DNA from: Candidatus Doudnabacteria bacterium RIFCSPHIGHO2_02_FULL_42_25
GTDB taxonomy: Bacteria; Patescibacteriota; Doudnabacteria; UBA920; O2-02-FULL-48-8
Assembly (NCBI GenBank): GCA_001777665.1
Contig: MFEQ01000004.1
Span: forward strand, 129,331-193,330
Direction of reading: 5' to 3'
Length of the DNA: 64,000 bases
In this document: positions 5,619-63,269 of the stretch, piece after piece
How positions within the stretch are numbered: the first letter of the stretch is position 1
How the letters are laid out: each line of letters begins with the position of its first letter
Made by a program: the position numbers and the translations under genes
Notes under the pieces: model-generated
What the model was told of the DNA's origin: nothing
The model's input: only the letters and a program-made list of their open reading frames with translations
Database searches by the model: none

Positions 5619-5711
5619 TGGCGGAGGCGGCAGGATTCGAACCTGCGGACCACTTTTAAGGCGGTCAACTCATTAGCAGTGAGCTGCTTTCGGCCACTCA
5701 GCCACGCCTCC
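5619..5711 (-). tRNA. tRNA-Ser (anticodon GCT)
   Basis: Reverse-complement cloverleaf: acceptor GGAGGCG, anticodon loop CUGCUAA, long variable arm, T-loop GGTTCGAATCC, CCA encoded. Confidence 0.9.
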
Positions 5712-7444: not shown

Positions 7445-7534
7445 GGAGAGGTGCGAGAGTGGTTTAATCGGACAGTCTTGAAAACTGTTGAGGATTCACG
7501 TCCTCCGTGGGTTCGAATCCCACCCTCTCCGCCA
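7445..7534 (+). tRNA. tRNA-Ser (anticodon TGA)
   Basis: Acceptor GGAGAGG / CCTCTCC-G-CCA, anticodon loop CUUGAAA, long variable arm, T-loop GGTTCGAATCC. Confidence 0.9.
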
Positions 7535-8243: not shown

Positions 8244-8318
8244 GCACCCGTCGTTCAATGGATAGGACACGAGATTGCGGATCTTGTAATCGAGGTTCGA
8301 TTCCTCGCGGGTGCACCA
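8244..8318 (+). tRNA. tRNA-Arg with the unusual anticodon GCG
   Basis: Cloverleaf GCACCCG...CGGGTGC-A-CCA, D-loop AATGGATA, anticodon stem CGAGA/TCTTG with loop TTGCGGA, T-arm CGAGGTTCGATTCCTCG. It closely resembles E. coli tRNA-Arg(ACG) but has G34. Confidence 0.75.
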
Positions 8319-8361: not shown

Positions 8362-10392
8362 ATGCTCAAAACACCTGTTGAACAACTATATCTAGTCGGG
8401 CCGGCTAGGGCTAAGCTATTCAAAAAGCTTGGAATTTTGACTTTGGAAGATTTGCTTTTTTACTTCCCTCGGGCCCATCACGATCTTTCTAAATTTTCCG
8501 AGATCAAAGATCTCAAAATGGGTGAAATGGTAAATATAAAAGCCAAAATTCTCGAAGTAAAAACTTTTCGGACAAAAGTCAGACGGTTTACGCTAACCCA
8601 AGCCCTCGTCGAAGATGGAACTGATAGCATTGTTTGTATTTGGTTTAACCAGCCCTTTCTGACCAAAATTCTGAAGCCCCATGAAGAATTCGTATTTAGC
8701 GGTAAAACCGTGGTGGCCAAAAACAAACTGCAGCTGCAAAACCCTGTTTATGAACCGGTAAAAACCGAGCAAATCCACACTTCGCGATTGGTCCCTTTAT
8801 ATTCTTTGACCTCGAGTTTGACGCAGAAGCAATTGCGATCAATTATAAAAACTTACTTGGACAAAGTCGTGCTTCCGGATTATTTACCATCTGATATTAT
8901 GCGAAAAGAAAAATTATTTAGCGAAGATCGGGCTGTAAAAACTTTTCATTTCCCCGATGATTATGCATCATTGAAAATGGCCCAGAATAGACTAGCCTTT
9001 GATGAAATATTTCAAACCCAACTCCGGGTTTTAAAATACAAATTCCAACGCCAACAAAAAAATAGTTTCCAGGTAAAAATTCCTGACAATTTAAATGAAA
9101 AAATCGCTTCCCTACCCTTTCAATTAACCGCCGGCCAAACACAAGCGCTAACAGTAATTCTCGAAGACTTTGATAAATCCTTTCCTGCCAACAGGTTATT
9201 AGAGGGCGATGTTGGCAGTGGCAAAACAATTGTCGCCGCACTAGCTTTATGGGTGTTGGCCAGAAACAATCTGCAATGCGTATTGCTCTCCCCGACTGAA
9301 GTTTTAGCCACCCAACACTACCAAACGCTGTTGAAATTTTTTGAAGAAGATGGTATTAACGTAGCCTTGCTTACCTCTACACAATCTCGTATAAATAATA
9401 ATCCGGTGACGAAAGCAACTCTGATATCCCAAATCAAATCAGGAACAATCCCGATAATCATCGGGACTCATGCCCTGCTAGAGAAACAAGTTAAATTTAA
9501 AAAACTGGCGATGATTGTGATAGACGAACAACATCGATTTGGAGTGGAGCAGCGGTCAATTCTTAAATCGATGAGTAACGCCCATTTACTTACCATGAGT
9601 GCCACCCCCATTCCTCGGACTTTGGCTCTGACTCTTTATGGTGATTTGGACTTATCAATTTTAAAAGAATTGCCTGCTGGTCGCCTTAAAATAGTTACTA
9701 AAATTGTCGCAGAAGAAAACCGAGCCAAGGCTTATAAATTTATTTCAGATCAGATCGAATCTGGCAGACAAGTGTTTGTGATATGTCCCCTAATTGAAGA
9801 GTCCGACAAGCTCGGTGTAAAATCGGCAACTTCAGAACATAAAAAGTTGTCTGACCTATTTCCACAATTTCAAATTGGTTTACTGCATGGCAAACTCAAA
9901 CCCGCCCAGAAGGAATCGGCCATGCAAGATTTTAAGGATAATAAATTGCAGATCCTGGTTGCTACTTCTGTGATCGAAGTCGGAGTCGATGTGCCGAATG
10001 CCAGTGTGATGATGATCGAAGGGGCGGAACGATTTGGGCTGGCCCAACTTCATCAATTTCGGGGACGCGTCGGGCGAGGTGAACATAAATCATATTGCTT
10101 CCTTTTTTCTGATGACCCACAAGCCTTAAGCAATCCGCGTCTGAAGGCTATTGAAGAAAACAGTAACGGGTTTGAATTGGCAGAAAAAGACCTGCAAATT
10201 CGAGGCAGTGGCGATCTCTATGGCACCAAGCAGAGCGGCTATGACTTCAAAATTGCCACTCTCAACAACTTAGACCTAGTCGAGCGGACTCGAGGCTATG
10301 CCGAGGAATTGCTGTACCAAGACCTAAATTTGAATCACTATCCCCTTTTGAAACAAAAAATCGAAGCAAAACCTCTGGTGCACTTGGAGTAG
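8362..10392 (+). CDS. recG: ATP-dependent DNA helicase RecG
   Basis: N-terminal wedge/OB domain, helicase motifs (GDVGSGKT, DEQHRFG, QFRGRVGRG). The start at MLKTPVEQ is chosen because the longer ORF overlaps tRNA-Arg. Confidence 0.9.
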   Translation: MLKTPVEQLYLVGPARAKLFKKLGILTLEDLLFYFPRAHHDLSKFSEIKDLKMGEMVNIKAKILEVKTFRTKVRRFTLTQALVEDGTDSIVCIWFNQPFLTKILKPHEEFVFSGKTVVAKNKLQLQNPVYEPVKTEQIHTSRLVPLYSLTSSLTQKQLRSIIKTYLDKVVLPDYLPSDIMRKEKLFSEDRAVKTFHFPDDYASLKMAQNRLAFDEIFQTQLRVLKYKFQRQQKNSFQVKIPDNLNEKIASLPFQLTAGQTQALTVILEDFDKSFPANRLLEGDVGSGKTIVAALALWVLARNNLQCVLLSPTEVLATQHYQTLLKFFEEDGINVALLTSTQSRINNNPVTKATLISQIKSGTIPIIIGTHALLEKQVKFKKLAMIVIDEQHRFGVEQRSILKSMSNAHLLTMSATPIPRTLALTLYGDLDLSILKELPAGRLKIVTKIVAEENRAKAYKFISDQIESGRQVFVICPLIEESDKLGVKSATSEHKKLSDLFPQFQIGLLHGKLKPAQKESAMQDFKDNKLQILVATSVIEVGVDVPNASVMMIEGAERFGLAQLHQFRGRVGRGEHKSYCFLFSDDPQALSNPRLKAIEENSNGFELAEKDLQIRGSGDLYGTKQSGYDFKIATLNNLDLVERTRGYAEELLYQDLNLNHYPLLKQKIEAKPLVHLE

Positions 10393-10421
10393 TTGACATT
10401 AGGCAATGCTGGCGGTAAAAT
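10393..10421 (+). promoter_or_regulatory. Near-consensus sigma70 promoter TTGACA-17nt-TAAAAT abutting the recG stop codon
   Basis: Read directly. A palindrome GGTCACG-ATCTC-CGTGACC follows at about 10434-10452, before the SD AAGGAGG. Confidence 0.6.
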
Positions 10422-10469
10422 TATCCTGATATAGGTCACGATCTCCGTGACCGCACCAAGGAGGTGCAT

Positions 10470-10658
10470 ATGCCCCAAGCGACTTCAGCGCCAGCAACAC
10501 GTCAGGATATCCACCAGGCAACAGTGTTTTTGTGCCTGAAGGGTCTTCGAACACGGCGACAAGCCGAACGCTGGATGAAGCGCAATCCCCACGACCCAAG
10601 TCACGCCACGGTCAGCCAGGCGAAAAAACTGGCATTCGATCGCAACCGCCGCGGGTAG
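10470..10658 (+). CDS. Small basic protein (62 aa), unknown function, in the GC-rich island
   Basis: SD AAGGAGG 5 nt upstream of ATG. GC3-rich codons unlike the flanking genes. MPQATSAPATRQDIHQATVFLCLKGLRTRRQAERWMKRNPH... Confidence 0.5.
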   Translation: MPQATSAPATRQDIHQATVFLCLKGLRTRRQAERWMKRNPHDPSHATVSQAKKLAFDRNRRG

Positions 10659-10747
10659 CAACAATGTCCCGGCGTCCGAGACCACCGCCTTGCTAGTCTC
10701 TGCAACGTCCACTCGATTTATCAATACGACGTCGTAGGAGAACAGCA

Positions 10748-10942
10748 ATGCGAGCATTTACTCTTCGTGAACCGATCACTGCCAGAGAAAAAGAAAACGG
10801 AAACCAGGTCTGCCTGACCAGGGCAACGGTCAACGGCAAACTGGTGCTTTCTCAAGGACACACGATATTCCGACCGATCGACCATTTCGAGCTCAGTCGG
10901 CGTGACCTAACTTCTTTGCAGATACAGGCGTCGAGCGCGTAA
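10748..10942 (+). CDS. Small protein (64 aa), unknown function, second ORF of the GC-rich island
   Basis: SD AGGAG 7 nt upstream of ATG. Same strand and composition as ORF A. MRAFTLREPITAREKENGNQVCLTRATVNGKLVLSQGHTIFRPIDHF... Confidence 0.5.
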   Translation: MRAFTLREPITAREKENGNQVCLTRATVNGKLVLSQGHTIFRPIDHFELSRRDLTSLQIQASSA

Positions 10943-11081
10943 CCTAGGTATTTCGGTGGTCAAAGTTAGGGATGTTTCCCACATCCAAGATGATGGACTT
11001 CCGAAGGACCAAAGGTCTCACGGGGCTGTTCACATAGCGGCAGACTAACTTCATCATTTTTCTGCGCCAGCAGCGAACAGT

Positions 11082-11120
11082 GGGATTGACGATCACCGCG
11101 ATCGTCAATCCCGTTTTTTT
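11082..11120 (+). terminator. Strong intrinsic terminator GGGATTGACGATC-accgc-GATCGTCAATCCC followed by T7
   Basis: Perfect 13-bp stem followed by TTTTTTT. Composition drops to AT-rich immediately after it. Confidence 0.85.
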
Positions 11121-11128
11121 ATGATAAA

Positions 11129-12118
11129 TTATTTACTTATTGAATAAAGTCTATTATTTGATTTGTCGACGAAGTAAACCGTGTTCCCTACCAAGAGCAT
11201 GATCTTAGTCTCAATCCTCTTACCAGGGTCGAAATAGATCTCGCTAGTATTAGTAGTCAGATCAATTTTTTTAAACAACCCACTGACATTAGCATAAATT
11301 AACTTTCCACTGCTATCTGCAACGAGTTGATCTAATGAAGTATTTAAATTCAAATTAGTTATTTGTTTTTTTGTCAGATCATAAAGGTAAATAGAAGTAT
11401 CCGTGGAGTATAAAAATTTATCAGCTGCAATCCATTTCGCGGATATATTTTTGCCCTGATCGACTAAGGTCGTTATCTGCCCAGTTTCCAAATTTACTGA
11501 ATAAATTTTGTTCGTGTCCCCCACAATATTTGACCTATAGATTAAAGCGGTCTTGCCGTCTGGATCGGGTTTTATAACCAAATCAGGCCAGAACACTGGA
11601 GTGATAGTTTTAAATCCCGACCCGTCAGCGTTGGCCATAGCCAATGAACTGGATTTATCTGTAGCTTCCCAAATATAAATAATTCTTTTGTTGTCTGGAA
11701 GCCATGATAAATATCGAATATTTTTTGGTAAATTGATATAAACCTTAAGCTTGCTATCGTAGTAGCTTTTTTGAATTTCCAGGTCTCCTGAAATCGTGAT
11801 AAAATCCGAACCTTCATTCGGCCACAAAACGGTACGCAAACTCTTTCCTGGTAAAATAGGAATTGAGGCTTCAGAGAGACCGGTCGATTTGACTTCAAAC
11901 AAATGACCATCTGAATTAAAGTACCAGATGACGTTATTCGCTCTGTCTGTTACTGGCGAAATTACTTCCTCTTCAGAAATTTGCTTAATTTGAAGCACCG
12001 GTACTATTTTTTCAACTTCCTTCTCTCGTTGTTTTTTTGTCGCATAATAAAGCACACCTCCAGCAACGAAAATTAACAAAATAATAATTGCGATTAAAAT
12101 AAAAAATCGTTTTCTCAT
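11129..12118 (-). CDS. Membrane-anchored TolB-like beta-propeller (PD40 repeat) protein; last gene of the secretion locus
   Basis: N-terminal TM segment (FFILIAIIILLIFVAGGVLYY). Repeated ADGSG/DPDGK motifs typical of PD40 propeller blades. Start set at MRKRFF to avoid overlap with the upstream gene. Confidence 0.5.
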   Translation of the reverse strand: MRKRFFILIAIIILLIFVAGGVLYYATKKQREKEVEKIVPVLQIKQISEEEVISPVTDRANNVIWYFNSDGHLFEVKSTGLSEASIPILPGKSLRTVLWPNEGSDFITISGDLEIQKSYYDSKLKVYINLPKNIRYLSWLPDNKRIIYIWEATDKSSSLAMANADGSGFKTITPVFWPDLVIKPDPDGKTALIYRSNIVGDTNKIYSVNLETGQITTLVDQGKNISAKWIAADKFLYSTDTSIYLYDLTKKQITNLNLNTSLDQLVADSSGKLIYANVSGLFKKIDLTTNTSEIYFDPGKRIETKIMLLVGNTVYFVDKSNNRLYSISK

Positions 12119-12119
12119 A

Positions 12120-13013
12120 TTATGCGCACCCCACAACAATATCCCAGTGATTTGATTCACGTGCATAAACTGCCCCAGAACTGTTCGTATATAGAGCTGC
12201 CCCATCACTAGCTCTAGCGCCACTGGGTTTGAAATTTGACGTTATATAAGTATTCACATTCGCTGTATCATCGATATCAATTTTAAAACCATTGGCATGA
12301 CTACAAGCCCCAGGTTCGTGTCCAGGTTCAGTGCCTCCTGTTACGACTATACTGCAGGAAGGACAAACAGTTTTCAGTGCTATAACTTCGTCAACGGTTG
12401 CGCGATTTATTCCCACCAGACATGTTTGTCCTGGAGGATTGGCAACCAATGTTGTTACATCAGTACAAACTTTATTTATCGGTATGCCAGCCACGCTGAA
12501 CAAATTTCTGGCTTCGAATTCAGTGAGTTTCCCAGTTACAGGAGGTGAGAAACCGCCACCGCCGCCACCGCCGCCGCTAGAAGAATCGCTAAGGTCGAAA
12601 GGTTCACAAAAATCTCCCAGGCCAGCAAGCCAACCAAGGTTGCTCAAAGTATTCACCGCGAACCCTTTTAATCCACCTTGGTTACAATAAGCTACTGTGG
12701 TGACTGCAATAAACATTAACAGTCCCATGAATAAGCCAATGCCTACTAAAACCGCAAGTGCTGTACCCCAATAAGGAGCAGTCGCCGCAATCGCACTTTT
12801 TGCAACCCCTTTTACGGCTTCCTTGCCAATCTGTTTCGCTTTGTCTTTAGCTGCATCGAGGATAGGATTACTAGGGCTGTTTTGATTTTGATTCTGCTGT
12901 TGTGAAGCCTCTTCTTCTGCTCTTCTTTCTTCCTCAAGTCGCTGTTGCTGATTGAAAGCATCTAAATCATCTTTAAACTCCTGGTCTTTATTTTCATCAA
13001 CTGCGTTGGCCAT
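12120..13013 (-). CDS. Membrane protein with Gly8 linker and Cys-rich C-terminal domain (possible cell-wall-active domain), secretion-locus associated
   Basis: TM segment ALAVLVGIGLFMGLLMFIAV, then GGGGGGGG (about 12553-12578), then a C-terminal domain with about 8 Cys. Confidence 0.45.
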   Translation of the reverse strand: MANAVDENKDQEFKDDLDAFNQQQRLEEERRAEEEASQQQNQNQNSPSNPILDAAKDKAKQIGKEAVKGVAKSAIAATAPYWGTALAVLVGIGLFMGLLMFIAVTTVAYCNQGGLKGFAVNTLSNLGWLAGLGDFCEPFDLSDSSSGGGGGGGGFSPPVTGKLTEFEARNLFSVAGIPINKVCTDVTTLVANPPGQTCLVGINRATVDEVIALKTVCPSCSIVVTGGTEPGHEPGACSHANGFKIDIDDTANVNTYITSNFKPSGARASDGAALYTNSSGAVYARESNHWDIVVGCA

Positions 13014-38941: not shown

Positions 38942-39335
38942 GGGGCTGATTGATTCGACAAGTGTTCTTTCAAATTTACTGCAAGTCCGATTAGCCTACT
39001 CTTTCGGTTAAAAAGAAAAGGTAAATCATAATTGCCACCTCATTGGTAAACAAAGTTAAAACAGCTTTTGCTGCTTTCAGCTTTGCTCCAGCTCTCGCTT
39101 AACTGTGAGGCTGCACCGACCCCTCGTCGTCTGCTAGAGGACCTCCGGTGTTATATTTGTAGACTTACTTTGACTGACGCTCGACATTCAAAGGACATCC
39201 GCCAGTTGGCGGAAGAGCAAACTTAAACCGTTTTGGTCCTGCTTCTATGGTTTAAGCCAAACAAGCAGGTCTAAACTTGTAGATGTGGATTTGAAAAATA
39301 TTTGGACGGGAGTTCACTACTCCCCAGCTCCACCA
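38942..39335 (+). ncRNA. ssrA: tmRNA (SsrA)
   Basis: 5' GGGGCTGATTGATTCGACA pairs with 3' GGACGGGAGTTCACTACTCCCCAGCTCCACCA, giving a tRNA-Ala-like acceptor with the G3:U pair. Internal tag reading frame ends ...GCT CCA GCT CTC GCT TAA (..APALA*). Adjacent to smpB. Confidence 0.85.
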
Positions 39336-42340: not shown

Positions 42341-42367
42341 CCGTACATGAGTTCCAAGGAGGACACC

Positions 42368-42685
42368 GTGAATCGACGTCAGTTCGTCAAAATCGGCGTG
42401 GCTGCTGGTGTTACAGTTGCCACTGCATCGTGTGGGAGTTCCGTCACCGGACCGATCGCGGCCAGCACTGTTCCGTTGCTAACCAGGCTAAAGCAGCTGG
42501 GCCACACCTCTGCAAAAACAGTGCAATACAAGAACACTAACGCGTACATGATCGAGATCGGTGGCACTGTCAACAAAACCTTCAAGGTCGGCAATGTGCT
42601 GCTTGGCGAAGGCCCTGTCGTCTCACCTACTCTGGACATGGCGAGATTCGAGGTTCCTATCGACGCCGAAGTAATCGTCTCTTAG
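42368..42685 (+). CDS. GC-rich gene for a small Tat-signal (twin-arginine) secreted protein of about 105 aa, unknown function
   Basis: SD AAGGAGG 5 nt before GTG. NRRQFVKIGVAAGVTVATA-S matches the Tat motif plus an AxA cleavage site. About 55% GC. Terminators on both sides. Confidence 0.5.
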   Translation: MNRRQFVKIGVAAGVTVATASCGSSVTGPIAASTVPLLTRLKQLGHTSAKTVQYKNTNAYMIEIGGTVNKTFKVGNVLLGEGPVVSPTLDMARFEVPIDAEVIVS

Positions 42686-42716
42686 GGGGAGCCTGTCTTC
42701 CCCATTTTCTTTTTTA
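42685..42716 (+). terminator. Terminator gggggag-cctgt-cttcccc followed by a T-run
   Basis: Overlaps the stop codon of the Tat-signal gene. Confidence 0.7.
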
Positions 42717-42729
42717 AAATTATAATTCC

Positions 42730-44016
42730 ATGAAAAAAATATTTATCCCTATCGTTTCTGGTTTGGTCGTAGCAATTCTAGTTACGACGAATTTAGTTAG
42801 TGCTGCCAATTTATCGCAAGCGATTTCCACTCTACCATCAGACGAAGAATGGTCGATCATGGCGAGAGCTGTAGTCGGACAAAATTCTGGTGCTACGTAT
42901 TTGCGTTCCCCTATTTCAGATGGAGTGGCAACTGATTATGAAAAACGAATTTTGGCGATCACAGCGATCGGAGAAAACCCATCAACTTTTGGTTCGGAAA
43001 ATTTTGTAGCGAAACTTGAAGGTTTTTTTGATGGCAATCAAATAGGAGATGCGCAACTGCTGAACGATGATATCTTCGGAGTTCTCGCACTAGCTTCAGC
43101 TGGAATTTCCGACAATGCCGTTTCCAAATCAAGACAATTTATTTTGTCCCATCAAAATTCTGATGGTGGTTGGGGCTATGCCACTGGCATAGGTTCTGAT
43201 TCAAACATGACCGCGATGGCAATAGCTGCACTTTCACATACTGGTAGCGTTCCGTCGAATGCATTTAATTATTTAAGCAGCACGCAGCATTCATCTGGTG
43301 GTTACGGATTTATTCCAGGACAAACTCCAGATGGAGCATCCACAGCCTGGGTAGTGATGGGTTTGAATTCTGCGAATCGCACAGTTCCTTCAAATGCGAT
43401 CCAGTTTCTCGATAGTCTTCAAACTTCCAATGGTTCTTTCAAATGGAAGCCTACCGACGCCACAGGATCCGGCCTTGTCACAGCTTATGCGGTCATCGCA
43501 CTTTCAGGACACGGGATACCGGTCAAAATTACCACAAATCCAACCCCTCCACCACCACCTATACCAACGCCTTCTCCAGCTCCCAATCCCGCCCCAACAC
43601 CAGCACCGTCTCCTGCACCCTCTCCAACACCTAGTCCGAGCCCTAGTCCAGCTCCAAGCCCATCCCCATCTCCTGCCCCTTCACCTACTCCGCCACCAAT
43701 TTCCAATCAAGTCCACATCACGATTACTTTTCCAGGAAATTATATTATTAACAGCAATATACCTTATAGCTCTAACCTTTCCGTTCTTCAATCATTGGTT
43801 GCAGCCAGCGATCAAATCAATTTGCTCTATGAAATAAAACAGACTGGACTAGGCCAGTTTGTATATAGTATCGATGGTTATAAACCAACAGGAACTTCCG
43901 GTTGGCAGTACGCTGTAAACGGATCAGCCCCCGATGTCGGAGCTGCTGATTATATATTATCCAATCAAGATCATGTCCAATGGTTCTTCGGCTCCCCCGG
44001 CAGTACCCCTTATTAA
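42730..44016 (+). CDS. Secreted protein with prenyltransferase/terpene-cyclase-like repeats, Pro/Ser/Ala-rich linker and C-terminal DUF4430-like domain
   Basis: Signal peptide. SDGGWGY and SSGGYGF repeats. Linker (PSPAPSPT)n. C-terminal YSIDGYKPTG...WQYAVNG. Confidence 0.55.
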   Translation: MKKIFIPIVSGLVVAILVTTNLVSAANLSQAISTLPSDEEWSIMARAVVGQNSGATYLRSPISDGVATDYEKRILAITAIGENPSTFGSENFVAKLEGFFDGNQIGDAQLLNDDIFGVLALASAGISDNAVSKSRQFILSHQNSDGGWGYATGIGSDSNMTAMAIAALSHTGSVPSNAFNYLSSTQHSSGGYGFIPGQTPDGASTAWVVMGLNSANRTVPSNAIQFLDSLQTSNGSFKWKPTDATGSGLVTAYAVIALSGHGIPVKITTNPTPPPPPIPTPSPAPNPAPTPAPSPAPSPTPSPSPSPAPSPSPSPAPSPTPPPISNQVHITITFPGNYIINSNIPYSSNLSVLQSLVAASDQINLLYEIKQTGLGQFVYSIDGYKPTGTSGWQYAVNGSAPDVGAADYILSNQDHVQWFFGSPGSTPY

Positions 44017-55813: not shown

Positions 55814-56509
55814 ATGCTGCTTCAGCAAATCGTCTATGACATGATGGGTTGGGGTATTACCATCGACATCGGAGTCCCCCTCTACATCAGCATCTGGACA
55901 CTGTTGCTCGCCCTGTTTCTGTTCTACGAAGCCAAGCGGTACATCTACCAACAACTCAAACCTCTCCGTACAGCTGTGTTCTTCAGTGAGAAAGGCATGA
56001 TCATCGGAGCAATCGTCGGATCCGTCCTGATGATTCTCTCGATCGCGGCTCACGAAGCCGGGCACGCCGTCGCGGCCAGCGCCTTCAACTTCCCTATTAC
56101 TGGCGCGGGGGTAACTGGCTGGGGTGCCTATGTTTCCTTGCCAGACGGGTATGCGAAGGGCACGCCGTGGGCAATGATTATTGTCTCCTTCGCCGGACCT
56201 ATCACGAATATTCTCCTCGCTCTGGTCTGCTACGTCATCGTGCGCTTGATGGATGAGTCGCTGGCGGAAAATACGATTCAGTTCGTGGCTCACATGAACT
56301 ACCGACTAGGGGTCTTCAACTTTGCACCGTTCATTGTTCTGGACGGAGGCAAGTTCGTCCTCGGAGTAATGCGACTGTTCTTCAGTGAGGACTTGGCCTT
56401 CACCATCACGATGACGATTTCGGGAGTGATGCTGGGTTGGTTCCTGTTCTTCCGCAAATCCGAAAAGGATTCCCGAAATTTCATCGAACGTGAGCTCGAG
56501 AAAGCCTAA
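55814..56509 (+). CDS. GC-rich gene for an M50-family (site-2-protease-like) membrane metalloprotease
   Basis: SD AAGGAGG 9 nt upstream. HEAGH zinc motif in a TM helix. FNFAPFIVLDGG matches the LDG motif. About 55% GC. Confidence 0.6.
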   Translation: MLLQQIVYDMMGWGITIDIGVPLYISIWTLLLALFLFYEAKRYIYQQLKPLRTAVFFSEKGMIIGAIVGSVLMILSIAAHEAGHAVAASAFNFPITGAGVTGWGAYVSLPDGYAKGTPWAMIIVSFAGPITNILLALVCYVIVRLMDESLAENTIQFVAHMNYRLGVFNFAPFIVLDGGKFVLGVMRLFFSEDLAFTITMTISGVMLGWFLFFRKSEKDSRNFIERELEKA

Positions 56510-57228: not shown

Positions 57229-58356
57229 CTACTTTCGCAACACCAATGCGGCGATGTCGGGAAAGTGTTCGGTAAAGTCGCCGAAGATCTGGACGCCGAA
57301 CGCGTTCTCTGCGAACTTCCCCCAAGTGATCTTTTCTTTGAACCCGGCTCCAGAGTAGGAACCAAAGCTCATGGGAGAAGAATGGATCTCGACGAATCCC
57401 GCCCAGGGTTGAATCAGCCGCTCCTGTTCCCCGAGTGACTCCTCGAACAGATAATCCTTCTTCAGGTGTGGGACGACGCAGATCGGAAAATCAGCAGCAA
57501 TTCCGCCGCCAAGCTGCAGAAAGGCCAGCGGAGTTTGTTCGGCATTGTCCATGTACCACTCAGCCAGTCGGTGCATGTATCCAGCGCCATGCTGAACCAC
57601 GCCCATACTGATCGGCTCATCCTGCCGGTATTGCTTCAAGAACGGATGATCGCCGCGGTAGCAGTAATAGGTGAAGATATTCCCCATCGTGGAATCTTCC
57701 CATCCAGGGACAAAGACCTCAACGTTGTTTCGCATGGCGGTAAGCAGCCAGCAGTCATCCGGATTCGCACCCGGATCGTTGACGACGTCCCTTCGCTTCA
57801 GCACTCGAAAGAAAAATTCGTGCCACAAAAGCGATTCGCCTTTTTTCTGAGCTGCCCGCCATTCTGCCTCGAGCAATGGCAGAATTACACGGACTGATTC
57901 GTCTTCCGGAAGGAACGTATCCGTAATCCTGCGAAGGCCAGCATCGTCGAGTTCCTTCTCCTGCGCCCGAGTCAGTTCAGTGTAGTCCGGAATGTAGGCG
58001 TAGTTGGAATGAGCAAGTAGCCGGTAAAGGCTTTCTTCCAGATTCGCACCAGTCACGGAAATCCCAGTGATGAGGCCTGCTCGGATCATCTCACTGATCA
58101 TGATCCCCATCTGAAATGATGAGCCAGCGCCGGACATGGTCAGAAAGATCTTGCCGCCGTCGTCGCAATGCTGGCGCAACCACAGACCGGCATCGATCGT
58201 TTTACCACCGTTGCAGTGACGCTTGTTGTGTACCAAAAAGTTAGAGACGGGAGTCAGTGGATCGGGTTCATACTTACGTTCGCTCGTGATGATTTGCGCG
58301 CGCAATGCCGAACTTAAGGATGCGAGCTTCTCGACAAAAGTCGGGGTTTCAGACAT
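57229..58356 (-). CDS. Deoxyhypusine synthase-like protein (DHS/homospermidine synthase family), GC-rich
   Basis: IFLTMSGAGSSF...SVTGANLEESL and C-terminal ITWGKF align with DHS signatures. SD AAGAGGA before MSETPTF. About 52% GC. Confidence 0.7.
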   Translation of the reverse strand: MSETPTFVEKLASLSSALRAQIITSERKYEPDPLTPVSNFLVHNKRHCNGGKTIDAGLWLRQHCDDGGKIFLTMSGAGSSFQMGIMISEMIRAGLITGISVTGANLEESLYRLLAHSNYAYIPDYTELTRAQEKELDDAGLRRITDTFLPEDESVRVILPLLEAEWRAAQKKGESLLWHEFFFRVLKRRDVVNDPGANPDDCWLLTAMRNNVEVFVPGWEDSTMGNIFTYYCYRGDHPFLKQYRQDEPISMGVVQHGAGYMHRLAEWYMDNAEQTPLAFLQLGGGIAADFPICVVPHLKKDYLFEESLGEQERLIQPWAGFVEIHSSPMSFGSYSGAGFKEKITWGKFAENAFGVQIFGDFTEHFPDIAALVLRK

Positions 58357-58472
58357 TGTATGGTCCTCTTGTAAGTTGTAACAGTATGAAGAGTATAACA
58401 AAAAAACATTACATATTAAAACGATAATAATATATTGACAAACGATAGACTATAAGTTACTATGACCGCTCA

Positions 58473-63194: not shown

Positions 63195-63269
63195 TGGCTC
63201 CGACGGTAGGATTCGAACCTACGACCTGGGGATTAACAGTCCCTCGCTCTACCGCTGAGCTACGTCGGA
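63195..63269 (-). tRNA. tRNA-Asn (anticodon GTT)
   Basis: Reverse complement: acceptor TCCGACG...CGTCGGA-G-CCA, D-arm GCTCAGCGGTAGAGC, anticodon loop CUGUUAA, T-arm GTAGGTTCGAATCCTAC. Confidence 0.85.

What the first reader, a model, noticed from the sequence alone, without database searches (positions are those of the whole stretch)
10393..11120. Compositionally foreign 0.73-kb expression module between recG and the secretion locus, carrying two small unknown proteins
Directly after the recG stop codon (TAG) lies a near-consensus sigma70 promoter, TTGACA-17-TAAAAT. It is followed by a perfect 7-bp inverted repeat with a 5-nt spacer (GGTCACG-ATCTC-CGTGACC) placed like an operator or 5' hairpin. 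Then comes AAGGAGG-N5-ATG and a 62-aa very basic ORF. After an 89-nt spacer there is AGGAG-N7-ATG and a 64-aa ORF. A 140-nt hairpin-rich tail follows, ending in a textbook intrinsic terminator (13-bp perfect stem plus T7). The segment is about 55-60% GC with GC3-rich codons (CAG, GCC, CGC, CTG), against roughly 38% GC and AAA/GAA/ATT-type codons in the flanks. Composition switches within a few nucleotides at both borders. Neither protein resembles a family I can name, and there are no PIN, HTH or AbrB signatures. The layout of promoter, palindrome, two short co-directional ORFs and terminator is what one expects of a self-contained addiction, regulatory or defence cassette acquired horizontally. 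One possible source is a high-GC host, given that the genome looks like an epibiont.
Basis: partly seen in the sequence, partly recalled or inferred. Interest (0 to 1): 0.85.

Follow-up and report, generated by a model that had tools for sequence, protein, structure and literature searches.

The report
Orphan small-protein operon after recG
The G+C-rich 0.73-kb stretch after recG is a real, self-contained and probably strongly expressed mini-operon for two tiny proteins with no detectable relatives outside one bacterial lineage. It is an old but very fast-evolving resident of that lineage (Candidatus Doudnabacteria), not a recent foreign insert, and its function is still unknown.

Summary
G+C is 53%, not 55-60%, and other genes in the window are equally G+C-rich. 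The same kind of module lies directly after recG in 8 of 11 Doudnabacteria-type genomes. It therefore looks native and ancestral, with several losses, and the high-GC-host origin is not supported.

The coding evidence comes from sibling genomes. ORF1 of L007 and L009 differs mostly at third codon positions. The window's ORF2 resembles the L007 and L009 ORF2s (z 5-6). The window's ORF1 shares only its MPQ start with the others.

Searches of 5.8 and 1.8 billion proteins found no relatives. Pfam, NCBIfam, PHROGs, PADLOC, Rfam, phage, plasmid and viral collections also gave nothing.

The transcript is unusually structured (z -3.2; controls -1.7 to +0.8). A mini-ORF with an Arg-Pro-Pro motif sits between the two ORFs. 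The RNA just after it pairs with the ORF2 ribosome site in four modules, which suggests relay translational coupling. Three siblings share a new 3' RNA motif with covarying kissing loops.

Low-confidence fold models suggest a basic three-helix protein and an SH3/KOW-like barrel. The function is unresolved; a toxin-antitoxin role is possible but untested.

The parts
10393..10421 (+). Sigma-70-type promoter TTGACA-17-TAAAAT, starting on the base after the recG stop codon. No terminator separates it from recG.
   Evidence: 11 of 12 matches; one of two perfect sites in 64 kb; 13 sites with at most 1 mismatch against 3.6 expected, so this is the host's own promoter type. GTAAAAT(T/A)A is conserved in the sibling modules.
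10434..10452 (+). Perfect 7-bp inverted repeat with a 5-nt spacer, about 5-8 nt after the inferred transcription start. It could be a 5'-terminal RNA hairpin (stabiliser) or a DNA operator; this is not resolved.
   Evidence: paired in the MFE structure. Four siblings have a hairpin of different sequence at the same place (L007, L013, L015 by eye). The transcription start is inferred, not measured.
10453..10467 (+). Hairpin GCACC-AAGGA-GGTGC that half-buries the ORF1 Shine-Dalgarno sequence (AAGGAGG, 10458-10464).
10470..10658 (+). ORF1, 62 aa, pI 11.7, starting MPQ. It is predicted to be a three-helix bundle.
10647..10674 (+). Hairpin whose 5' arm is the last codons and stop codon of ORF1. Its loop and 3' arm hold the AUG of the mini-ORF.
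   Evidence: MFE structure of the inter-ORF region.
10664..10696 (+). Mini-ORF MSRRPRPPPC*, starting 5 nt after the ORF1 stop codon. It has no Shine-Dalgarno sequence of its own.
   Evidence: Read (it is the C-terminal part of the 10532-10696 frame). Mini-ORFs with R-P-P lie at the same place in L007 (VDIRPP*), L013 (MRRCRPP*) and L009 (MGHARPPPQ...). Translation has not been shown.
10686..10752 (+). Long-range helix that buries the ORF2 ribosome site. The 5' arm (10686-10709) covers the end of the mini-ORF and the following bases. The 3' arm (10728-10752) covers AGGAG (10736-10740), the spacer and the AUG (10748). An ATCAAT motif lies at 10720-10725.
   Evidence: MFE; duplex -18.9 kcal/mol; 3 of 1000 shuffles do as well; 0 of 98 other windows of the module do as well. 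The same arrangement with different sequences is found in L007, L009 and L013. ATCAA(C/T) lies 9-25 nt before the ribosome site that follows it in 7 of 8 modules.
10748..10942 (+). ORF2, 64 aa, pI 10.0. It is predicted to be a small SH3/KOW-like beta-barrel with a C-terminal helix.
10943..11081 (+). Structured 3' untranslated tail with two composite hairpins (10943-11015 and 11025-11081).
   Evidence: MFE. On its own the tail scores z -1.7. It has no homology to the sibling tails or to the RNA-A model.
11082..11120 (+). Intrinsic terminator: perfect 13-bp stem, 5-nt loop, then G and T7. It lies 9 nt before the stop codon of the convergent 345-364-aa gene (11129-12223, minus strand).
   Evidence: (repeat I2).

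Best explanation
This is a native, lineage-restricted micro-operon of Candidatus Doudnabacteria that evolves very fast. One strong host-type promoter makes a G+C-rich, heavily folded mRNA of about 0.7 kb.

Inferred expression relay:
1. ORF1 (a basic three-helix protein) is translated from a partly buried ribosome site.
2. A ribosome finishing ORF1 melts a hairpin that holds the AUG of a 10-codon mini-ORF (MSRRPRPPPC).
3. A ribosome pausing or terminating on the Pro-rich end of that mini-ORF melts the helix that buries the ORF2 ribosome site.
4. ORF2 (an SH3/KOW-like barrel) is therefore made only when the upstream frames are being translated.

The high G+C is kept because the RNA has to fold, not because the DNA is foreign.

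The products are most likely small nucleic-acid-binding regulators, probably RNA-binding, that act on their own structured transcript or on a target not yet identified.

Shown: the anatomy, the conservation of place and layout, the coding signature in siblings, the excess RNA structure, and the conserved anti-ribosome-site pairing.
Inferred: transcription, the relay mechanism, any stalling at Arg-Pro-Pro, and the function of the proteins.
For: Synteny and age:
- A module with the same layout follows recG in the window, L007, L008, L009, L011, L013, L014 and L015. It is absent from L010, L012 and L016.
- The recG tree places carriers on both deep and crown branches.

Coding:
- ORF1 of L007 and L009 is 56% identical. 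Differences by codon position are 21/12/36, and 14 of 34 identical residues use different codons.
- Sibling-module ORFs show GC1/2/3 of about 0.6/0.4/0.7; the window's own ORFs are flatter (0.65/0.53/0.60 and 0.56/0.45/0.56).
- Window ORF2 resembles L007 ORF2 (z 6.1) and L009 ORF2 (z 4.9).

Expression signals:
- The combination of consensus promoter plus strong ribosome site is unique in the 64-kb window and marks the modules of four siblings (L007, L008, L013, L015).

RNA structure:
- The module without its terminator scores z -3.2. Six control coding segments, three of them equally G+C-rich, score -1.7 to +0.8.
- Sibling modules score -1.6 to -4.2.

Relay:
- In all four modules that have an R-P-P mini-ORF, the 36 nt starting at the Pro codons are the best partner of the ORF2 ribosome site in the whole module.
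- Duplex energies are -14.6 to -20 kcal/mol. None of about 100 other windows per module does as well, and 0-21 of 1000 shuffles do.
- The paired sequences differ between species.

Structured RNA:
- L007, L009 and L011 share a 145-153-nt 3' RNA. It has 42 consensus pairs, 8 of them compensatory, plus covarying loop-loop complementarity: GGAACUGUC/GACAGUUCC, GACAGUC/GACUGUC and GUGUGA/UCACAC.

Folds:
- The best matches for both models include RNA-binding domains (FinO/RocC for ORF1; KOW, L24 and OapB for ORF2), but all are weak.
Against: - No transcription or translation data exist.
- The window's own ORF1 and tail have no detectable homologue in any sibling, so nothing comparative supports them directly.
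- ORF2 similarity beyond the window, L007 and L009 is not significant. One 'ORF2 family' across all 8 modules therefore rests on position and layout only.
- The R-P-P codons could be conserved as C-rich RNA that pairs with G-rich segments, rather than as peptide. The window mini-ORF lacks a Shine-Dalgarno sequence.
- The minus strand folds at least as well (z -5.6), as expected for hairpin-rich DNA. Structure alone does not identify the functional strand.
- Other genes of this genome are equally G+C-rich.
Confidence: 0.45

Rival explanations
1. Toxin-antitoxin or other addiction/defence cassette. ORF1 would be a small DNA-binding antitoxin that represses the promoter through the palindrome, and ORF2 a translationally coupled toxin (or the reverse).
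For: - Two short co-directional genes have their own promoter, with a palindrome just downstream of the -10 box.
- ORF2 translation is tied to upstream translation, which would fix the ratio of the two products.
- The proteins evolve very fast, and the module is present in some species and absent from others.
Against: - Neither ORF, nor any sibling ORF, matches anything in Pfam, NCBIfam, PADLOC or PHROGs.
- The genes are 89 nt apart, with a mini-ORF between them.
- ORF1 is lost in L011 and L014 while a downstream ORF remains.
- The position is fixed across a lineage whose recG is only 62-79% identical. Mobile TA loci do not usually behave this way.
- A 140-320-nt structured 3' tail is not a feature of TA operons.
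Confidence: 0.2
2. A partner of the neighbouring type IV secretion-like locus. The module would be either a FinOP/RocC-RocR-like RNA-plus-chaperone regulator of that locus, or a source of small fast-evolving proteins exported by it.
For: - The module is always convergent with the same 345-364-aa gene, which is followed by a VirB4/TraC-type ATPase (PF19044, E 1.4e-25).
- Several products end in Arg-rich tails: window ORF1 ...DRNRRG and L007 ORF2 ...VVRRRPNMQRVW.
Against: - L010, L012 and L016 keep the downstream locus without the module.
- No complementarity to the neighbouring genes was examined or found.
- No signal peptide or membrane segment is apparent by eye.
Confidence: 0.12
3. Recently acquired foreign DNA (mobile-element remnant, or a transfer from a high-GC host).
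For: - G+C is 53% against 40%, and GC3 is 0.56-0.60 against 0.36-0.44 in the neighbouring genes.
- The content is mosaic. The window's ORF1 and tail are unrelated to those of its closest relative L007 (recG 79% identical), which suggests segment replacement.
- L013 has an extra gene inserted next to the module, flanked by a duplicated promoter segment.
Against: - The site and layout are the same in 8 of 11 related genomes.
- There is no integrase, transposase or flanking repeat.
- Plasmid, phage and viral collections give no match, and two protein collections of billions of sequences hold no relatives outside these genomes.
- The promoter is the host consensus type.
Confidence: 0.08
4. A pure structured non-coding RNA of about 0.7 kb whose ORFs are accidental.
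For: - G+C-rich islands in A+T-rich genomes are often structured RNAs.
- The module scores z -3.2.
- A conserved pseudoknotted RNA domain exists in the tails of three siblings.
- The window ORF1 has an atypical GC1/2/3 of 0.65/0.53/0.60 and no homologues.
Against: - There are no Rfam hits, even at E up to 10.
- L007 and L009 ORF1 differ mainly at third codon positions.
- Every main ORF has AGGAGG or AGGAG at 5-7 nt before its start.
- ORF2 protein similarity reaches z 5-6.
- Codon-position G+C periodicity is seen in the sibling-module ORFs and is weaker in the window's own two ORFs.
Confidence: 0.07

Closest known systems
Leader-peptide / translational-coupling control of a downstream cistron (ermC-type attenuation, secM-secA, RAPP-type arrest peptides ApdA/ApdP; PMC7897499, PMC10951233, PMC12992588)
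   Same: A very short upstream ORF ends in a Pro-rich, Arg-containing motif. The RNA just after it pairs with the ribosome site of the next gene, so a ribosome sitting there would free that site. Arg-x-Pro-Pro motifs near the C-terminus of small proteins are described as stalling devices (PMC12992588).
   Different: The motif here is R-P-P(-P), not R-A/G-P-P. The mini-ORFs have 6-10 codons, apart from the L009 frame, which runs on into a 62-aa ORF, so they are far shorter than known arrest peptides. The downstream gene is an orphan, not a Sec/YidC component. Stalling has not been tested. In the window the mini-ORF has no ribosome site and would need re-initiation after ORF1.
Type II toxin-antitoxin operons
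   Same: Two small co-directional genes, their own promoter with an adjacent palindrome, coupled translation, fast evolution and patchy presence.
   Different: No homology or fold match to any toxin or antitoxin family. The genes are 89 nt apart. The locus is fixed in the chromosome across a whole lineage. The upstream gene is dispensable in two genomes. There is a long structured 3' tail.
FinO/ProQ-family chaperone with its structured RNA (FinOP of F plasmids, RocC-RocR of Legionella)
   Same: A small basic helical protein whose best fold match is the RocC FinO domain, a strongly structured RNA ending in a terminator hairpin, and a position next to a type IV secretion-like locus.
OLE RNA with OapA/OapB (a large structured RNA plus a small KOW-like RNA-binding protein)
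   Different: There is no sequence or covariance-model similarity to OLE. The RNA here is an mRNA. No membrane partner is present. The match is near noise.

Membership tests
Type II toxin-antitoxin system | One product belongs to a known toxin superfamily (RelE/ParE, MazF/CcdB, PIN, HicA, Doc, Fic, GNAT and others) | tested here: not met
Type II toxin-antitoxin system | The partner is a DNA-binding antitoxin (RHH, HTH, AbrB or Phd type) that binds an operator in its own promoter | tested here: inconclusive
   ORF1 is predicted to be a three-helix bundle (pLDDT 75) with no family hit. A palindrome lies at 10434-10452. Binding cannot be tested here.
Type II toxin-antitoxin system | The two genes are kept together as a pair wherever the system occurs | tested here: not met
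   ORF1 is reduced to 4 codons in L011 and is absent in L014, while a downstream ORF remains. L008 has three ORFs.
Type II toxin-antitoxin system | Growth arrest by one product that the other relieves | not testable with these tools
   Needs expression experiments.
Any described structured RNA family (Rfam 15: RNase P, 6S, OLE, GOLLD, ROOL, HEARO, riboswitches, ribozymes and others) | A covariance-model match at or near the family threshold | tested here: not met
   No match at gathering scores in the window. The only match at E up to 10 in 10200-11300 is chance (sR41, 11.8 bits against 54). Nothing was found in six sibling modules at E up to 1.
RNA-A (the 3' RNA motif defined here from L007, L009 and L011) | A match to covariance model R1 (146 positions, 42 pairs) | tested here: not met
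   R1 finds only its three source sequences. Nothing was found in the window, L008, L013, L014 or L015 at E up to 10.
RAPP-type ribosome arrest peptides | A C-terminal Arg-Ala/Gly-Pro-Pro motif in a small upstream ORF | tested here: not met
   The motifs are R-P-P or R-P-P-P (window MSRRPRPPPC*, L007 VDIRPP*, L013 MRRCRPP*, L009 ..ARPPPQ). The Ala/Gly position is missing. The definition comes from PMC12992588 and PMC10951233.
RAPP-type ribosome arrest peptides | The upstream ORF is placed so that a stalled ribosome frees the downstream ribosome site | tested here: met
   MFE structures and duplex energies in four modules support this placement. The segment after the Pro codons is the best partner of the ORF2 ribosome site in each. 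This is computational only.
RAPP-type ribosome arrest peptides | Demonstrated translation arrest | not testable with these tools
   Needs toeprinting or an in-vitro translation assay.
FinO/ProQ RNA chaperones | A FinO domain recognisable by sequence profile or by a full-domain fold match | tested here: not met
KOW / SH3-like small beta-barrels | A five-stranded barrel with a significant fold or profile match | tested here: inconclusive
Mobile element or genomic island | An integrase or transposase, flanking repeats, or copies on phages, plasmids or unrelated genomes | tested here: not met
   No such ORFs are present and there are no flanking repeats. Plasmid, phage and IMG/VR searches give no match. 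One metagenome pattern scan returned only a second copy of L007.
Ribosomal protein bS21 | Sequence-profile similarity to S21 | tested here: not met
   There is no Pfam hit.

The most novel reading that the evidence does not exclude
The module is a previously undescribed self-contained ribonucleoprotein system of CPR bacteria. A stable, G+C-rich, pseudoknotted RNA domain (RNA-A in L007, L009 and L011; an analogous but unrelated tail in the window) would be made together with two tiny RNA-binding proteins that assemble on it. The particle would act in trans, for example on the adjacent type IV secretion-like locus or in the interaction with the host cell. The extreme divergence would then reflect an arms race.
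Probability: 0.15. Interest if true: 0.75.

Novelty: new variant of a known kind. Interest (0 to 1): 0.45.

Why it matters
CPR bacteria have tiny genomes, and a large share of their genes have no known function. This module is kept at one chromosomal site across a whole candidate phylum-level lineage. It carries the strongest expression signals in the 64-kb window and stays G+C-rich in A+T-rich genomes. Its proteins and RNA nevertheless change almost beyond recognition between species whose recG is 62-79% identical.

That combination points to a function under both strong selection and rapid change, and to control exerted mainly through RNA folding. The work gives three concrete, testable objects:
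- a relay of hairpins with an Arg-Pro-Pro mini-ORF
- a new kissing-loop RNA motif
- two small proteins with no detectable relatives outside these genomes.

If the proteins prove to bind their own transcript, this would be a compact model for RNA-protein co-evolution. If they are toxic, it would be a new toxin-antitoxin type. At present it is an interesting orphan, not a discovery of function.

Tried and rejected
- Known RNA family: Rfam at gathering scores and at lenient E-values, on the window and on six sibling loci, gave nothing in the modules.
- Protein homologues of ORF1 and ORF2: single-sequence searches found only the query proteins themselves.
- Profile of six concatenated ORF1+ORF2 pairs against 5.8 billion proteins: it found only three proteins that were already in the profile.
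- Full HMMER profile search of ORF2 against 1.84 billion representatives: only its own input sequences.
- Pfam, PHROGs, PADLOC and NCBIfam: no credible hit. The L007 ORF2 hit to the YacP NYN domain (20.6 bits, below the 24.6 cut-off) covers only a third of the model and is not shared by the other ORF2s, so I treated it as chance.
- bS21 idea (MP.. start, basic, helical): rejected by Pfam and hhalign.
- Viral origin: two pattern scans of IMG/VR gave no hits and 12 chance hits without the flanking motif. The BFVD fold search gave no E below 0.1.
- Plasmid or phage origin: blastn found no match.
- More family members from metagenomes: the pattern TAAAATWA-N30-60-AGGAGG-N4-7-ATGCCCCA returned 43 loci, of which only L116 (identical to L007) is a module.
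- Homology of the window tail to the sibling RNA: blastn with word size 7, nhmmer and covariance model R1 all failed.
- Within-species polymorphism, to look for compensatory changes: the six other contigs of this species are identical in the module.
- AFDB fold search: the library was not available.
- Long-range repeats inside the module (for example TAGGTCACG at 10432 against CGTGACCTA at 10901): about as many as chance predicts, so not used.
Full report

Yes. recG ends with TAG at 10390-10392. On the next base begins TTGACA, then 17 nt, then TAAAAT (10393-10421). This site matches 11 of 12 consensus positions and is the best in a 2-kb scan. It is one of only two perfect TTGAC-N18-TAAAAT sites in the 64-kb window.

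- the 7-bp inverted repeat with a 5-nt spacer (10434-10452)
- AAGGAGG, 5 nt, then ATG
- the 62-aa ORF1 (10470-10658, pI 11.7)
- the 89-nt spacer
- AGGAG, 7 nt, then ATG
- the 64-aa ORF2 (10748-10942)
- the 139-nt tail
- the terminator with a perfect 13-bp stem, then G and T7 (11082-11120).

Composition needs correcting. G+C is 53.4% over 10422-11120, with a peak 300-nt window of 57%, against a window mean of 40.4%. Only the 3' border is abrupt. Several ordinary genes in the window are as G+C-rich, for example the deoxyhypusine synthase gene at 57232-58401 (GC3 0.63) and the gene at 55814-56509 (GC3 0.70).

The segment is not a chimera. All six independently assembled contigs that were read match the window exactly across the module.

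**2. Where the window comes from, and what relatives show**

ORF2 is on record as a hypothetical protein of a Candidatus Doudnabacteria genome from the Rifle aquifer. A scan of one genome per species with the recG protein returned ten loci with 62-79% recG identity, L007-L016.

In seven of these, as in the window, a G+C-rich module begins within 1-15 nt of the recG stop codon. In L013 it begins after an extra inserted gene. In each case the module ends just before the same convergent gene.

All modules share this layout:
- TTGAC-N17-TAAAAT, usually as GTAAAAT(T/A)A
- a 5' leader that often contains a hairpin
- a strong AGGAGG
- a first small ORF (starting MPQ in four modules, MPD in one)
- an ATCAA(C/T) motif 9-25 nt before a second ribosome site
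- a second ORF of 64-105 aa
- a structured tail of about 90-320 nt, ending in a strong terminator in the modules read to their 3' end (L014's 3' end was not examined).

L010, L012 and L016 have no module. In these genomes recG is followed directly by the convergent gene. On a recG tree the carriers include the deepest branches (L013, L014, L015), and the non-carriers are scattered. Ancestral presence with at least three losses is therefore the simplest history.

This contradicts a recent acquisition from a high-GC host. So does the absence of any similar DNA or protein in phage, plasmid and viral collections and in two protein collections of billions of sequences.

**3. Coding or non-coding?**

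The sibling data show real genes.
- ORF1 of L007 and L009 is 56% identical. Nucleotide differences fall 21, 12 and 36 on codon positions 1, 2 and 3. Fourteen of the 34 identical residues use different codons.
- The sibling-module ORFs have the GC1 > GC2 < GC3 pattern of coding DNA, about 0.6/0.4/0.7. The window's own ORF1 (0.65/0.53/0.60) and ORF2 (0.56/0.45/0.56) show it only weakly.
- Each main ORF has a near-optimal ribosome site.
- The window's ORF2 is significantly similar to the ORF2 of L007 (z 6.1) and L009 (z 4.9).

Beyond these three, ORF2 similarity is not significant. The window's ORF1 shares only its first three residues with the others.

The closest relative, L007 (recG 79% identical), has a different ORF1 and an unrelated tail. 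The module is therefore a mosaic: a conserved frame whose inner segments diverge or are replaced far faster than the flanking genes. ORF1 is not essential to the unit. It is cut down to four codons in L011 and is missing in L014.

**4. The RNA**

The predicted transcript folds much better than its composition predicts. The window module without its terminator scores z -3.2. Six control coding segments of the same length, three of them equally G+C-rich, score -1.7 to +0.8. The six sibling modules tested score -1.6 to -4.2.

This consistent excess, together with G+C-richness that persists while the sequence itself turns over, points to selection on RNA folding rather than foreign origin. That step is inference.

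Two structural features have comparative support.

(a) A relay between the ORFs.
- In the window, the last ORF1 codons pair with the region that holds the AUG of a 10-codon mini-ORF, MSRRPRPPPC* (10664-10696), 5 nt after the ORF1 stop.
- The end of this mini-ORF and the following bases (10686-10709) pair with the ORF2 ribosome site, spacer and AUG (10728-10752).
- L007 (VDIRPP*), L013 (MRRCRPP*) and L009 (MGHARPPPQ...) have an R-P-P mini-ORF in the same place. There it is driven by the ATCAACG...CGGAGG site.
- In all four modules, the 36 nt starting at the Pro codons are the best pairing partner of the ORF2 ribosome site in the whole module. Energies are -14.6 to -20 kcal/mol, none of about 100 other windows does as well, and 0-21 of 1000 shuffles do.
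- The paired sequences differ between species, so the arrangement, not the sequence, is conserved.

(b) A new 3' RNA motif in three siblings, which I call RNA-A.
- L007, L009 and L011 share a 145-153-nt 3' RNA. RNAalifold gives 42 pairs, 8 of them with compensatory changes.
- The apical loops of two hairpins are complementary in each species through different sequences: GGAACUGUC/GACAGUUCC, GACAGUC/GACUGUC and GUGUGA/UCACAC. Against shuffled loops these score z -2.5 to -4.5.
- RNA-A has no Rfam match.
- A covariance model of it finds nothing in the window. The window's tail is a different structured sequence without comparative support (z -1.7 alone).

**5. How it most likely works**

Shown: the anatomy, the synteny, the coding signal, the excess structure and the conserved pairing against the ribosome site.

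Inferred:
- A strong promoter fires just after recG. No terminator separates the two, so recG read-through also enters the module.
- The 5' hairpin protects the RNA or serves as an operator.
- ORF1 is translated.
- Termination at the ORF1 stop opens the first hairpin and allows initiation on the mini-ORF.
- A ribosome pausing or terminating on the Pro-rich end of the mini-ORF covers the 5' arm of the second helix and exposes the ORF2 ribosome site.

Consecutive prolines are slow to translate without EF-P. Arg-x-Pro-Pro motifs near the C-terminus of small ORFs are known stalling devices (PMC12992588, PMC10951233, PMC7897499). The motif here lacks the Ala/Gly position, and the ORFs are much shorter. 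So this unit works like those systems at most; it is not a member. The C-rich codons may also be conserved simply as RNA.

**6. What the proteins do**

This remains open. AlphaFold models built from 2-3 sequences give two results.

The only PDB sequence hits are uL24 KOW domains at E 2.7. All of this is weak. It is compatible with small nucleic-acid-binding proteins and with little else that I can name.

I therefore favour self-regulated RNA-binding regulators made from, and perhaps acting on, a structured transcript. My confidence in this functional part is low.

The rivals are these.
- Toxin-antitoxin module: the layout fits, but nothing else does, and the pair is not obligatory.
- Functional link to the neighbouring VirB4-type secretion locus: position and a weak FinO-like fold only.
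- Recent foreign DNA: largely refuted.
- Pure non-coding RNA: contradicted by the coding signals.

**7. Novelty and verdict**

The regulatory logic is of a known kind: hairpins that occlude ribosome sites and are relieved by upstream translation. The two proteins and the sibling RNA motif belong to no described family. The persistence of a G+C-rich, hyper-variable module at one site across a CPR lineage is unusual.

I rate it a new variant of a known kind, of moderate interest (0.45). There is about a 15% chance that it is a new RNA-protein system, which would deserve much more attention.

Noticed in passing
L007:6706-6858, L009:6649-6797, L011:6363-6507: RNA-A is a conserved RNA domain of about 150 nt in the 3' tail of three sibling modules. 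It has a long P1 hairpin, an enclosing P2 helix (GUGUURCC/GGYRAC, compensatory) and covarying loop-loop (kissing) complementarity. It has no Rfam match and is absent from the window.
   Followed up: yes
L013:6058-7090: A 256-277-aa ORF is inserted between recG and the module. It has a weak glycosyltransferase-2-like hit (24.8 bits, below the Pfam cut-off). The segment TTGACGCGCRATGCTTGACG is present on both sides, which looks like a duplicated promoter or target site.
   Followed up: partly
L014:6035-6590: A reduced module lies in a 54% G+C genome. It has the promoter, a leftover AAGGAGG with no ORF1 behind it, the ATCAACG motif and a single 105-aa ORF. This shows that ORF1 is dispensable.
   Followed up: partly
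L011:6040-6372: ORF1 is cut down to 4 codons (ATG TGC AGC CCG TAA). The second ORF is a different 94-aa protein that begins with CPFCHC (possibly a zinc ribbon). It is followed by the same RNA-A as in L007 and L009.
   Followed up: no
L008, L011, L014 (record titles): These genomes are labelled Methylomirabilota (L008) and Saccharibacteria (L011, L014). Their recG is 65-76% identical to the window's, and they share the same flanking genes and module. The bins are probably mislabelled Doudnabacteria-type genomes.
   Followed up: partly
window 10432-10440 and 10901-10909: TAGGTCACG, the 5' arm of the leader palindrome, has a perfect 9-nt complement (CGTGACCTA) near the end of ORF2. This could be a long-range 5'-3' pairing or a third operator half-site. 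About one such match is expected by chance in this region.
   Followed up: partly
window 10987-10997 and 11050-11060: By eye, AAGAUGAUGGA in the first tail hairpin is complementary over 11 pairs (2 of them G-U) to UUCAUCAUUUU in the loop of the second tail hairpin. This would be a possible loop-loop contact like that of RNA-A. It has no comparative support and may be chance.
   Followed up: no
window 11082-11128: The module's terminator lies 9 nt from the stop codon of the convergent gene (11129-12223, minus strand). On the minus strand the hairpin has no U-tract after it, so transcripts of the secretion-locus operon may read through, antisense, into the module.
   Followed up: no
window 55814-56509 and 57232-58401 (also 42347-44016): Ordinary protein-coding genes, including deoxyhypusine synthase (Pfam E 5.9e-26), have 53-57% G+C and GC3 of 0.63-0.70 in a 40% G+C window. 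G+C heterogeneity is therefore a property of this genome, not only of the module.
   Followed up: partly
window 25405-25433 (minus strand): This is the only other perfect TTGACA-N17-TAAAAT promoter-like site in the 64-kb window. The gene it may drive was not examined.
   Followed up: no
window 38942-39335; 5622-5711, 7445-7531, 8244-8315, 63198-63269: A tmRNA gene (Rfam 87 bits) and four tRNA genes are present. One tRNA (8244-8315) lies immediately upstream of recG.
   Followed up: no
window 12123-13013 (minus strand): A 297-aa protein between the convergent gene and the VirB4-like ATPase has a run of nine glycines and no Pfam match. A longer relative (433 aa) with a Glu/Ala/Gly-rich low-complexity region occupies the same place in L014.
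   Followed up: no
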